Below are positions 44,101-47,100 of a stretch of DNA of 64,000 bases, piece by piece (position 1 is the stretch's first letter; each line of letters begins with the position of its first letter). The DNA is from Escherichia coli O157:H7 (lineage in GTDB: Bacteria; Pseudomonadota; Gammaproteobacteria; Enterobacterales; Enterobacteriaceae). The stretch lies in NCBI RefSeq assembly GCF_013167455.1, contig NZ_CP038328.1; one strand, given 5' to 3'. Position numbers: made by a program.

Positions 44101-47100
44101 CGCCGGTCTGGTGTTTTTAGGCGCAGGCGTTTTCTCATGGCTAAGCCTTGAACCGGTGATCTTGCAGCGTCTGCGTAGTTCGGGAGAATTACCCACGGCA
44201 CTGCGGACATCACTCGGCATTCAGCTCGCTCCTGCGCTGGTGGCCTGTAGTGCCTGGCTGAGCGTCAACGGCGGCGAGGGTGACACGCTGGCGAAAATGC
44301 TTTTCGGTTATGGACTGCTGCAACTGCTGTTTATGCTACGTCTGATGCCATGGTATCTCTCCCAGCCATTTAATGCTTCATTCTGGAGTTTCTCGTTCGG
44401 CGTATCTGCACTGGCAACCACCGGTTTGCATCTGGGGAGTGGCAGCGATAATGGATTTTTCCATACGCTGGCGGTGCCGCTGTTTATCTTTACCAATTTT
44501 ATTATTGCAATACTGCTCATCCGTACTTTGGCGCTTCTGATGCAGGGAAAATTGTTAGTCAGAACCGAGCGCGCCGTTTTAATGAAAGCAGAGGACAAAG
44601 AATGATCATTCGTGACGAAAATTATTTTACTGATAAATATGAATTAACCCGCACACACTCTGAAGTACTGGAAGCGGTGAAAGTGGTTAAACCGGGTAAA
44701 ACGCTGGATCTGGGCTGTGGCAATGGTCGTAACAGTCTTTACCTGGCAGCCAATGGTTATGATGTTGACGCATGGGATAAAAATGCCATGAGTATCGCCA
44801 ACGTCGAGCGCATTAAATCCATTGAAAATCTGGATAATTTACACACCCGGGTCGTTGATCTGAATAACCTCACATTTGATGGAGAGTACGATTTTATTCT
44901 TTCGACTGTGGTGCTGATGTTCCTTGAGGCTAAAACCATCCCAGGGCTGATTGCCAATATGCAACGTTGCACTAAACCTGGCGGTTACAACCTGATTGTG
45001 GCGGCGATGGATACCGCTGATTATCCATGTACCGTCGGCTTCCCGTTTGCCTTCAAAGAGGGAGAATTACGTCGATATTACGAAGGCTGGGAGATGGTGA
45101 AATACAATGAAGACGTCGGCGAGCTGCACCGCACCGACGCCAACGGTAATCGTATTAAACTGCGTTTCGCCACGATGCTGGCACGTAAAAAATGACCCGG
45201 TAAGAACAAAGCGCGTGAAAATTCCCCACGCTGAGATGGTTTACTGTCCTTCTTTTCGGTAAGCATATTTTTTATCGAAGGGATGTGAAATTAATCACAG
45301 TAGTCGAAGTTTTTTAGCAGCTTAACTTACTGAAATTTAACTACTGATGATTGACTTAGCCCCTTTTGCGGCATTGACTATGTCGTCTGAAAAGGGGCTA
45401 AAAAAATTTATTTTCACCAACACTTTTTTTGCCACAACACGAAGCGGCGCTTTTTGCTATAACTTAAAAAGTAATATAATCATCTCAGGAAACTATTCAT
45501 GCGTACCACATCATTTGCGAAAGTTGCAGCTTTATGCGGCTTGTTGGCTCTGTCTGGTTGTGCCTCTAAAATCACCCAGCCAGATAAATATTCTGGTTTT
45601 TTAAACAATTACTCTGATTTAAAAGAAACAACCTCGGCTACAGGTAAACCGGTTTTACGTTGGGTAGACCCGAGTTTTGATCAAAGCAAATATGACAGCA
45701 TCGTCTGGAACCCAATCACTTATTATCCGGTACCGAAACCTTCGACCCAGGTAGGGCAGAAAGTTCTGGATAAAATTTTGAACTATACCAACACCGAAAT
45801 GAAAGAAGCGATAGCGCAGCGTAAACCACTGGTTACCACCGCGGGGCCGCGTAGTCTGATTTTCCGTGGGGCCATTACCGGTGTAGATACCAGCAAAGAA
45901 GGGCTGCAATTCTATGAAGTGGTTCCTGTTGCATTAGTGGTTGCGGGGACGCAAATGGCTACAGGCCACCGTACCATGGATACTCGCTTGTATTTTGAAG
46001 GTGAGCTGATTGATGCAGCGACTAATAAACCGGTTATCAAAGTCGTTCGTCAGGGCGAAGGTAAAGACCTGAATAACGAAAGTACGCCAATGGCTTTCGA
46101 AAATATTAAACAAGTTATTGATGACATGGCGACCGATGCCACCATGTTTGACGTTAACAAAAAGTAGTTCCAGACGCGCCATCGTTAGATGGCGCTTTTT
46201 ATTATCGGTTTCTGTCAGCGATTAAATTCAACACCACGTAACAAACGCCTCCGGCAATTAATCCCCAAAACGCAGAACCAATCCCGACCAGCGTCAATCC
46301 ACTTGCCGTTACCAGAAATGCCACCACCGCCGCGTCGCGCTCACGCTCATTATGCAGCGCCTGATACAAACTGCCGCCAATGGTACTCAACAGCGCCAGA
46401 CCTGCCAGCATCTGGATCCAACTTACGGGCAGGGCAGCCATCATCCCGGTAATGGCACTACCAAACAGACCTGCGAGCAAATAGAAAATGCCTGCAACGG
46501 CAGCTGCCAGCCAACGTTGATCTTTATCCGGATGCGCTTCCGGGCTTTGGCAAATAGCCGCGGTGATTGCCGCAATACCGACGGAATAAACGCCGAAAGG
46601 GGAAAAAACCAGTGCCAGCAATCCAGTAAACACAATCAACGGCGAAACAGGAGCCGAATACCCGGCTGCTTTCATTGCTGCGATACCCGGTGCGTTTTGC
46701 GATGCCATCGTCACCAGAAAAAGGGGGAGTGCAACGCTCAGGCTGTGAGCAAACGAAAAATCAGGGGTAATATAAGTGGGGAGAACGGGTTTAAAGACAA
46801 CATCAGTTGTGACAACGTCACCTTGCGCGATAACGATCACGATCCCAATAATCATCGCGGCAATTACCGCATAGCGCGGCGCAACGGCCTTGGTTGCCAG
46901 CCATACCAGCAACATACTTCCACACAACGTAAATTGACCGTCCAGACTGGCAAACGCCTGTAAACCAAAGCGTAATAAAATCCCGGCAAGCATTGCTGCC
47001 GCAAGCGAGTGCGGAATAATGCGCATCAGACGAGCAAAGAGTCCCGTTATGCCGCAGAGGACTATTAACGCGTTGGTGACAATAAAAACGCCGATGGCTT

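What the first reader, a model, noticed from the sequence alone, without database searches (positions are those of the whole stretch)
46168..46201. No IS609-like element between ydcL and ydcO (and no IS inside ydbA)
In K-12 an IS609-family transposase-like gene (ydcM/insQ) sits between ydcL and ydcO, and IS2/IS30 copies lie within ydbA. Here ydcL's terminator abuts the ydcO stop codon directly, and no transposase-like ORF occurs anywhere in the 64 kb. The window therefore comes from a non-K-12 E. coli backbone that keeps the pre-insertion state, which is useful for dating those IS insertions.
Basis: established knowledge. Interest (0 to 1): 0.3.

Follow-up and report, generated by a model that had tools for sequence, protein, structure and literature searches.

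The report
Empty IS609 site between ydcL and ydcO
This stretch of an E. coli O157:H7 chromosome lacks the IS609 mobile element that K-12 carries between ydcL and ydcO; this is an ordinary, already known strain difference, and about 40% of sequenced E. coli share the empty state.

Summary
In the window, ydcL (45499-46167, +) and ydcO (46202-47374, -) converge on a 34-bp spacer that holds only ydcL's intrinsic terminator. K-12 MG1655 carries a 1748-bp IS609 exactly between window bases 46202 and 46203. It sits after TTTAT, has no target duplication, and lies inside ydcO's stop codon, so K-12 YdcO gains one Tyr.

The window is O157:H7 backbone. It has no IS609, IS2 or IS30 remnants and no annotated transposase.

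- IS609 at this site is not K-12-specific. 3258 of 5426 complete E. coli genomes carry it, and at most 2138 are empty.
- Its synonymous divergence matches the flanking genes, so the insertion is old.
- Cryptic Escherichia clades, basal E. coli alleles and B2 strains are empty, so empty is ancestral for the species.
- For O157 itself, secondary loss cannot be excluded, because this IS family excises without a scar and the flanks are recombinationally mosaic.
- O157 genomes carry a different IS609 copy at gltX-yfeD.
- The O157 ydbA homologue has no IS, but it is only 59% identical to K-12's and has its own premature stop.
- The IS2/IS30 insertions in ydbA are confined to 366 genomes, K-12 lab strains where listed.

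Verdict: ordinary and already known.

The parts
45499..46167 (+). ydcL, a DUF3313 lipoprotein gene; stop codon TAG at 46165-46167
   Evidence: ORF list; Sakai annotation ECs_2036; Pfam DUF3313, E = 4e-63
46168..46201 (.). 34-bp ydcL-ydcO spacer, which is the finding's interval; it contains nothing but the terminator
   Evidence: Sequence; identical spacer in the empty E. coli alleles nearest the window and a near-identical one in cryptic Escherichia clades
46176..46202 (+). Intrinsic terminator of ydcL: 8-bp stem (6 G-C pairs), GTTA loop, then TTTTTAT tail
   Evidence: Terminator scan; fold dG -16.7 kcal/mol, z = -3.6, 0 of 200 shuffles as stable
46198..46202 (+). TTTAT, the pentanucleotide after which IS609's left end is joined in occupied genomes; the unoccupied insertion point lies between 46202 and 46203
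   Evidence: Junction comparison with K-12 and five other occupied genomes; two independent IS609 copies elsewhere (gltX-yfeD and a DUF3251 gene) also follow TTTAT
46202..47374 (-). ydcO, a BenE-family transporter of 390 aa. Its stop codon TAA (46204-46202 read on the minus strand) straddles the insertion point. In occupied genomes the reading frame becomes TAT-TGA, giving 391 aa
   Evidence: the three occupied loci annotated from ydcO's usual start codon (MG1655, ATCC 8739, 2016C-3878) have 1176 nt against 1173 nt in most empty ones (versus 25, 28, 30); Pfam BenE, E = 7e-162
46203..46222 (+). The 20 nt immediately 3' of TTTAT. In occupied genomes the same bases follow IS609's right end. They would therefore be the guide segment of an InsQ (TnpB) omega-RNA, making this empty site its cognate target. 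This is inference only
   Evidence: Identity of the right flank in occupied and empty alleles; general TnpB homing mechanism from the abstract of 10.1101/2023.11.20.567912; not tested for IS609
9767..15364 (+). ydbA-like autotransporter reading frame without IS2 or IS30, split by one in-frame stop at 12683-12685
   Evidence: Single-frame translation; Pfam BigA_N, BigA_beta and Autotransporter; annotated as two CDS in Sakai

Best explanation
The interval is the unoccupied form of a chromosomal IS609 insertion site in an E. coli O157:H7 backbone. ydcL and ydcO converge, and the 34-bp spacer holds only ydcL's rho-independent terminator. The terminator's T-tract ends in TTTAT and overlaps ydcO's stop codon.

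In an ancestor of many E. coli lineages, an IS609 (IS200/IS605 family, single-strand 'peel-and-paste' transposon) was joined 3' of that TTTAT without duplicating any target bases. That allele is now in about 60% of sequenced E. coli, including K-12. Its tnpA has since decayed independently in different lineages, while insQ (tnpB) stays intact.

The O157:H7/O55:H7 lineage most likely descends from chromosomes that were never occupied at this site. The empty site does nothing beyond terminating ydcL transcription and ending ydcO.

Shown here: the anatomy, the exact insertion point, the population frequencies, the empty state in outgroups, and the age of the insertion. Inferred: that this particular lineage was never occupied.
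For: - Exact clean junction and K-12 annotation.
- All six occupied loci examined share the same junction, TTTAT|CCGG...GTCAA|TATCGG. This points to one insertion event.
- Three cryptic-clade Escherichia genomes have an empty ydcL-34 bp-ydcO arrangement. None of 80 Enterobacteriaceae ydcL loci has insQ nearby.
- In local flank trees, basal E. coli alleles and B2 (ST131 strain 81009) are empty, and the occupied alleles cluster mostly with A/B1 strains such as K-12, ATCC 8739 and H19.
- At linked sites 400-460 bp right of the junction, O157 carries the C-C-C haplotype seen only in empty alleles. All six occupied alleles carry T-T-T.
- tnpA lesions differ between occupied lineages: a stop at GR*LRR in K-12 and ATCC 8739, and a stop at LIN*PP in ES5, H19, Combat13F7 and 2016C-3878. 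The element was therefore intact when it arrived and decayed in place.
- insQ synonymous divergence between K-12 and H19 is 0.030, against 0.028 for the six flanking genes. The insertion is therefore old.
- IS609 made no new insertions in K-12 mutation-accumulation lines (PMC5009759).
Against: - IS200/IS605 excision is precise (PMC5027513 abstract), so a once-occupied site would look identical to this one.
- Strain ES5 carries IS609 on a left flank that matches O157's haplotype to within about 200 bp of the junction. Strain 2016C-3878 carries IS609 on B2-like flanks. Occupancy and flank haplotype therefore violate the four-gamete test, so recombination or excision has moved states between backgrounds.
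- O157 genomes have another IS609 at gltX-yfeD. Its TnpA reading frame has no internal stop and matches the whole Y1_Tnp Pfam model, so a source of transposase in this lineage cannot be excluded. RefSeq does flag that gene as incomplete.
- Phylogroups were not assigned genome-wide, and only 15 E. coli loci were compared in detail.
Confidence: 0.75

Rival explanations
1. Secondary loss. An ancestor of the O157:H7/O55:H7 lineage carried IS609 here and lost it. The loss came either by scarless TnpA-catalysed excision, which regenerates exactly TTTAT|TATCGG, or by homologous recombination that replaced the occupied allele with an empty one from another strain.
For: - Excision in this family is precise (PMC5027513 abstract), so no scar is expected.
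- ES5 (occupied) shares O157's left-flank haplotype, and PapRG-06-5 (empty) sits among occupied alleles in the local trees.
- The four-gamete test is violated within 300 bp of the junction.
- O157 has an IS609 copy with an uninterrupted Y1 transposase frame at gltX-yfeD.
Against: - Outgroups and basal and B2 alleles are empty, so loss needs an extra step.
- O157's right-flank haplotype 400-460 bp from the junction is found only on empty alleles in the sample.
- All six tnpA copies examined at this site are pseudogenes (annotated as such), and IS609 was immobile in K-12 mutation-accumulation lines.
Confidence: 0.22
2. Artefact. The IS is present in the organism but was collapsed or skipped in the assembly from which the window was taken.
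For: None found.
Against: Many independent complete O157:H7 and O55:H7 genomes (Sakai, EDL933, Xuzhou21, RM12579 and others) have a contiguous junction 100% identical to the window over 2.1 kb and over 5 kb. ydcO ends in a normal TAA stop.
Confidence: 0.01

Closest known systems
IS609 of E. coli K-12 (yncK tnpA pseudogene plus ydcM/insQ tnpB), MG1655 1503161-1504908
   Same: It is the element whose insertion site this is. The flanks are collinear and 98.6-98.7% identical on both sides of the insertion point.
   Different: The window has none of the 1748 bp, and ydcO keeps its original TAA stop (390 aa instead of 391). The element is not K-12-specific: 3258 of 5426 genomes have it at this site.
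IS608 (Helicobacter pylori) and ISDra2 (Deinococcus radiodurans), the model IS200/IS605 elements
   Same: By established knowledge of the family, IS609 shows the family hallmarks, confirmed here on the K-12 copy: insertion 3' of a fixed pentanucleotide (TTTAT at three independent sites), no target duplication, no terminal inverted repeats, similar subterminal hairpins at both ends, and a right end finishing in TCAA as in IS608. It also has a Y1 HUH transposase and a TnpB.
   Different: tnpA and tnpB are divergent in IS609. All six tnpA copies at the ydcL site are pseudogenes. No biochemical data for IS609 were found in the searched literature.
TnpB/omega-RNA 'vacant site' homing targets (10.1101/2023.03.14.532601; 10.1101/2023.11.20.567912)
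   Same: The window's TTTAT plus the following 20 nt is by construction identical to the donor joint that excision of the K-12 copy would create. That makes it the sequence a right-end-derived guide RNA would specify.
   Different: Nothing shows that InsQ or its RNA is active. Rfam gave only a sub-threshold HgcC-like match at the IS609 3' end (22 bits against a gathering score of 50). The window's genome has no IS609 at this locus to produce such a guide.
K-12 versus O157:H7 backbone differences (strain-specific islands and IS content)
   Same: The window shows the usual pattern of a collinear backbone at 96-99% identity, with strain-specific segments and IS differences.
   Different: This difference is a single-IS polymorphism, not an island.

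Membership tests
IS200/IS605-family insertion (IS609) present in the window | tnpA (Y1 HUH transposase) and/or tnpB (insQ) coding sequence, or remnants of the IS ends | tested here: not met
   blastn (word size 7) and tblastn of K-12 IS609, InsQ and YncK against all 64 kb gave a best E-value of 0.09. The spacer is only 34 bp.
IS200/IS605-family target site (unoccupied) | A conserved tetra- or pentanucleotide immediately 5' of where the left end is joined | tested here: met
   TTTAT at 46198-46202. The same TTTAT precedes IS609 at ydcL-ydcO in six genomes and at two unrelated loci.
IS200/IS605-family target site (unoccupied) | No target-site duplication, so occupied and empty alleles differ by exactly the element | tested here: met
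   The 1748-bp difference has no shared or duplicated bases at either boundary.
IS200/IS605 family (the K-12 element used for comparison) | Subterminal imperfect hairpins at both ends, and no terminal inverted repeats | tested here: met
   The left end has CCCCATCCTTCAGGGCGGGG and the right end has CCACGTCCTTCAGGGCGTGG. The right-end fold has z = -3.3. The left-end hairpin is present but the 81-nt fold is not better than shuffles (z = -0.8).
IS200/IS605 family (the K-12 element used for comparison) | Y1_Tnp transposase and OrfB_IS605/TnpB domains | tested here: met
   InsQ matches OrfB_IS605 (8e-35), Cas12f1-like TNB (2e-23) and HTH_OrfB_IS605 (3e-13). The TnpA of the O157 gltX copy matches Y1_Tnp (3e-39) over the full model.
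Rho-independent (intrinsic) terminator | G+C-rich hairpin directly followed by a U-tract, downstream of a stop codon | tested here: met
   8-bp stem with 6 G-C pairs plus TTTTTATTAT, starting 9 nt after the ydcL stop codon; z = -3.6. On the minus strand no U-tract follows the stem, so it is mainly unidirectional.
Rho-independent (intrinsic) terminator | Demonstrated transcript 3' end | not testable with these tools
   No transcript data were available.
TnpB/omega-RNA homing target | A transposon-adjacent motif plus a guide-complementary sequence that is cleaved by the cognate TnpB-RNA complex | not testable with these tools
   The sequence prerequisite holds by construction. Activity of InsQ, its motif preference and the existence of the RNA are untested. 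The Rfam hit is sub-threshold.

The most novel reading that the evidence does not exclude
The empty ydcL-ydcO junction may be the cognate target of a still-functional InsQ (TnpB)-omega-RNA encoded by the occupied allele. When occupied and empty chromosomes meet through conjugation or transduction, InsQ would cut TTTAT|TATCGGTTTCTG... and the break would be repaired from the occupied copy.

Such short-tract 'homing' would explain three things seen here:
- a transposase-dead IS609 sits in 60% of E. coli;
- it occurs on unrelated flank haplotypes (ES5, 2016C-3878), with four-gamete violations within 300 bp of the junction;
- insQ stays intact under purifying selection (pN/pS 0.15-0.4) while tnpA decays independently.

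The evidence here does not exclude this, and does not test it.
Probability: 0.12. Interest if true: 0.5.

Novelty: already known. Interest (0 to 1): 0.1.

Why it matters
As stated, the finding matters little. It is a routine strain polymorphism that identifies the window as non-K-12 (O157:H7) backbone.

The check corrects a common assumption. The K-12 IS609 copy is an old, widely shared allele found in 60% of complete genomes, not a laboratory-strain insertion. The IS2 and IS30 copies in ydbA, by contrast, are confined to 366 genomes, with K-12 lab strains as the full-length matches listed.

It also shows that an empty site of an IS200/IS605 element cannot by itself be read as 'pre-insertion', because excision leaves no scar.

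The occupied/empty pair at this locus would make a convenient natural substrate for testing whether E. coli's own TnpB (InsQ) is an active RNA-guided homing nuclease.

Tried and rejected
- **IS remnants in the window.** I looked for degraded IS609, IS2 or IS30 remnants or transposase-like coding potential anywhere in the 64 kb and found none. Pfam, NCBIfam and PADLOC on the four ORFs of the O157-specific 1.8-kb segment gave no family at all, so they are not recognisable transposases.
- **Spacer hairpin as an IS end relic.** Rejected. It is unrelated to the IS609 end hairpins, and it is conserved in cryptic Escherichia clades that have no IS.
- **Omega-RNA in Rfam.** A search at the IS609 3' end gave only sub-threshold hits (HgcC 22 bits, RAGATH-18 25 bits), so no claim is made.
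- **Polarity from local trees.** I tried to settle ancestral versus lost for O157 from flank trees. The region is too recombinant: the left, right and concatenated trees disagree, and ES5 and 2016C-3878 are mosaics. Only species-level polarity is firm.
- **Phylogroups.** Genome-wide phylogroup assignment of the sampled strains was not possible with the available tools.
- **Literature.** Searches for IS609 and InsQ found no functional study of this element. They returned only mobile-element surveys and the K-12 mutation-accumulation result.
- **Exact Sakai coordinates.** My first assumption that the window equals Sakai at those coordinates failed because of a 156-bp repeat indel in the ydbA-like gene.

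Full report
**What is at the coordinates**

- ydcL (DUF3313 lipoprotein; 45499-46167, + strand) and ydcO (BenE-family transporter; 46202-47374, - strand) converge.
- The 34 bp between them (46168-46201) contain one hairpin, GCGCCATC-GTTA-GATGGCGC (46176-46195), followed by TTTTTAT.
- The consensus scan calls this a terminator on the + strand. The 51-nt RNA fold has dG -16.7 kcal/mol, z = -3.6, and no shuffle out of 200 is as stable.
- On the - strand the stem is not followed by a U-tract, so it mainly serves ydcL.
- The T-tract runs into ydcO's stop codon (TTA on the + strand at 46202-46204).

**Where the window comes from**

- The 2.1 kb around the junction is 100% identical to many complete O157:H7 genomes (Sakai, EDL933, Xuzhou21 and others) and to O55:H7 RM12579.
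- Against Sakai, the 64 kb differs by 7 substitutions and one 156-bp in-frame repeat indel in the ydbA-like gene.
- The Sakai annotation of the segment runs from pfo to yncD and lists no transposase.

**Comparison with K-12**

- MG1655 annotation shows 'insertion sequence:IS609' at 1503161-1504908 between ydcL and ydcO. It contains the tnpA pseudogene yncK (-) and insQ, a 'putative RNA-guided DNA endonuclease' (+).
- blastn of the window against MG1655 1436000-1526000 gives four collinear blocks. Two of them meet at window 46202|46203, matching K-12 1503160|1504909.
- The junction reads ...GGCGCTTTTTAT|TATCGGTTTC... in the window.
- In K-12 it reads ...GGCGCTTTTTAT|CCGGTGCGCC...GGAGGATGTCAA|TATCGGTTTC....
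- No bases are shared or duplicated. The difference is exactly the 1748-bp element.
- The insertion point lies inside ydcO's stop codon. O157 reads ...CGA TAA and K-12 reads ...CGA TAT TGA, so K-12 YdcO is 391 aa with an extra C-terminal Tyr. Gene lengths are 1176 against 1173 nt.

**The element is a typical IS200/IS605 member**

- InsQ matches OrfB_IS605, the Cas12f1-like TNB domain and HTH_OrfB_IS605. The transposase frame matches Y1_Tnp.
- The two ends carry similar subterminal hairpins, and the right end finishes in TCAA.
- Two further IS609 copies at unrelated loci (gltX-yfeD and inside a DUF3251 gene) also follow TTTAT, without duplication.

**How common each state is**

- Among 5426 complete E. 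coli genomes, a query spanning the ydcL-IS609 left junction is covered in 3258.
- The contiguous window-type junction is covered in at most 2138. This figure includes a few small insertions.
- In an even sample down the ranking, 37 of 59 full-length matches had IS609.
- One strain (98192) has a 709-bp IS200C in the same spacer, and one strain has IS4 inside ydcO.
- The IS609 copy is therefore a species-wide polymorphism, not a K-12 trait.

**Polarity**

- Three cryptic-clade Escherichia genomes have the empty ydcL-34 bp-ydcO arrangement. None of 80 Enterobacteriaceae ydcL loci has insQ nearby.
- In neighbour-joining trees of 4.9 kb on each side, basal E. coli alleles and B2 (ST131 strain 81009) are empty. 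Occupied alleles cluster mainly with A/B1 strains (K-12, ATCC 8739, H19).
- All occupied loci share the identical junction, which points to one insertion.
- tnpA is broken by different lesions in different occupied lineages: a stop at GR*LRR in K-12 and ATCC 8739; a stop at LIN*PP in ES5, H19, Combat13F7 and 2016C-3878; and an additional 5-bp deletion in H19 and Combat13F7. The element therefore arrived intact and decayed in place.
- insQ is intact in all copies at this site, with pN/pS 0.15-0.4 on few substitutions.
- Its synonymous divergence matches the flanking genes: K-12 versus H19 is 0.030 against 0.028, and K-12 versus ATCC 8739 is 0.007 against 0.009. The insertion is therefore about as old as the divergence of those alleles.
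- IS609 produced no new insertions in K-12 mutation-accumulation lines (PMC5009759).

**Is the O157 site 'pre-insertion'?**

Probably, but this is not provable from the sequence.

- In favour: the outgroup and basal pattern above.
- In favour: 400-460 bp to the right of the junction, O157 carries a haplotype (C-C-C) found only on empty alleles in my sample, while all six occupied alleles carry T-T-T.
- Against certainty: excision in this family is precise (PMC5027513 abstract).
- Against certainty: ES5 (occupied) shares O157's left-flank haplotype to within about 200 bp of the junction. 2016C-3878 (occupied) has B2-like flanks. PapRG-06-5 (empty) sits among occupied alleles.
- Occupancy and flank SNPs therefore fail the four-gamete test, so recombination or excision has shuffled the states.
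- O157 genomes identical to the window also carry a different IS609 between gltX and yfeD. That junction is in 533 genomes. The copy is 97.5% identical to K-12's, and its TnpA frame has no internal stop, although RefSeq flags it as incomplete.
- I put 'never occupied' at 0.75 and 'secondary loss' at about 0.22. Assembly artefact is excluded.

**The ydbA part of the finding**

- K-12 ydbA is interrupted by IS2D and IS30C. Removing them and their 5-bp and 2-bp duplications restores an intact 2020-aa frame.
- The IS2D-50 bp-IS30C arrangement occurs in only 366 genomes. Both full-length matches shown in the listing (ER1709, C600) are K-12 lab strains. These insertions are confined to a small set of genomes, unlike IS609.
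- The window's homologue (9767-15364) has no IS, but it is a different allele. Its protein is 59% identical to K-12's over 1700 aa and 34% identical at the N-terminus.
- It is split by one in-frame stop at 12683-12685 and is annotated as two CDS in Sakai. It is not the uninterrupted ancestor of the K-12 gene.

**'No transposase-like ORF in 64 kb'**

- This is supported by the negative nucleotide and protein searches with the three K-12 IS elements and by the Sakai annotation.
- The remainder of the window is collinear with IS-free K-12 sequence.
- The two non-K-12 segments gave no transposase domains.

**Comparison with what is known, and verdict**

This is the unoccupied allele of the known IS609 (ydcM/insQ) insertion. 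It belongs to the long-known set of IS differences between K-12 and O157:H7. Nothing in the window itself is unusual.

The one speculative point of interest concerns InsQ. The empty site is by construction TTTAT plus the sequence that an IS609 right-end-derived guide RNA would carry. TnpB proteins of this family act as homing nucleases on vacant sites (abstracts of 10.1101/2023.03.14.532601 and 10.1101/2023.11.20.567912). That could account for a transposase-dead element being in 60% of genomes on mosaic flanks, with insQ conserved. This is untested. Rfam gave only a sub-threshold HgcC-like hit at the IS 3' end.

Interest is low. Novelty: already known.

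Noticed in passing
window 28382-30196: A low-G+C (34-39%) 1.8-kb segment between hrpA and ydcF holds four small same-strand ORFs (141, 122, 145 and 136 aa; Sakai ECs_2016-2019). K-12 has only 138 bp at this position. There were no hits in Pfam, NCBIfam or PADLOC, so the function is unknown.
   Followed up: partly
window 9767-15364 (stop at 12683-12685; repeats 10103-10312; indel near 11445): The ydbA-like autotransporter is one reading frame broken by a single in-frame stop. It is only 59% identical to K-12 YdbA. It has 30/57/60-bp tandem repeats near its 5' end (10103-10312). It also differs from Sakai by a 156-bp in-frame indel near 11445, which is separate from that annotated array.
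   Followed up: partly
window 9392-13502 versus K-12 1446202-1472160: K-12's 26-kb feaR-feaB-tynA-paaZ-paaA..K-paaXY block, together with the 5' part of ydbA, has no megablast match here. In the window, ydbL is followed almost directly by the ydbA-like gene.
   Followed up: no
L011 5708-7670 (Citrobacter), and about 60 other Enterobacteriaceae loci among L011-L085: In most other genera (Citrobacter, Enterobacter, Klebsiella, Kluyvera, Raoultella and others), ydcL and ydcO are about 2 kb apart. The gap holds an EamA-family transporter and an AraC-family regulator. Escherichia, one Salmonella locus (L012), Atlantibacter and two Citrobacter genomes lack them. The tight Escherichia junction may therefore be a deletion product.
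   Followed up: partly
L091 5002-5711 (E. coli strain 98192): A different member of the same IS family, IS200C (709 bp, intact tnpA), sits in the T-tract of the same ydcL terminator. This spacer has therefore been hit independently by two IS200/IS605-family elements.
   Followed up: partly
L099 3006-4753 (O157-type strain 08-3914, gltX-yfeD); outside the window: O157:H7 genomes identical to the window carry their own IS609 between gltX and yfeD, again after TTTAT next to a terminator-like T-run. It is present in 533 genomes. K-12 has a single IS609 copy (PMC5009759 Table 1), at ydcL-ydcO, so the two strains appear to have reciprocal IS609 occupancy; the K-12 gltX-yfeD site was not inspected directly.
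   Followed up: partly
L001/L005 IS609 (K-12 1503161-1504908), plus L086, L088, L089, L093, L094: insQ (tnpB) is intact in every copy at the ydcL site, with pN/pS 0.15-0.4, while tnpA is independently inactivated. This suggests selection keeps the nuclease gene after the transposase is lost.
   Followed up: partly
window ~41978-42274 and ~32752-33753: Gene-state differences between the strains are visible in the annotations. rimL is a pseudogene in Sakai (ECs_2032) but intact in K-12. gapC is intact in Sakai (ECs_2022) but a pseudogene in K-12.
   Followed up: no
L090, L092, L094, L095 (about 9300-9600 or 11070-11150 in the loci); corresponds to window ~50580-51220: B2-like alleles lack hicA and keep only a partial hicB downstream of yncJ. 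O157, K-12 and others have the full hicAB toxin-antitoxin pair.
   Followed up: no
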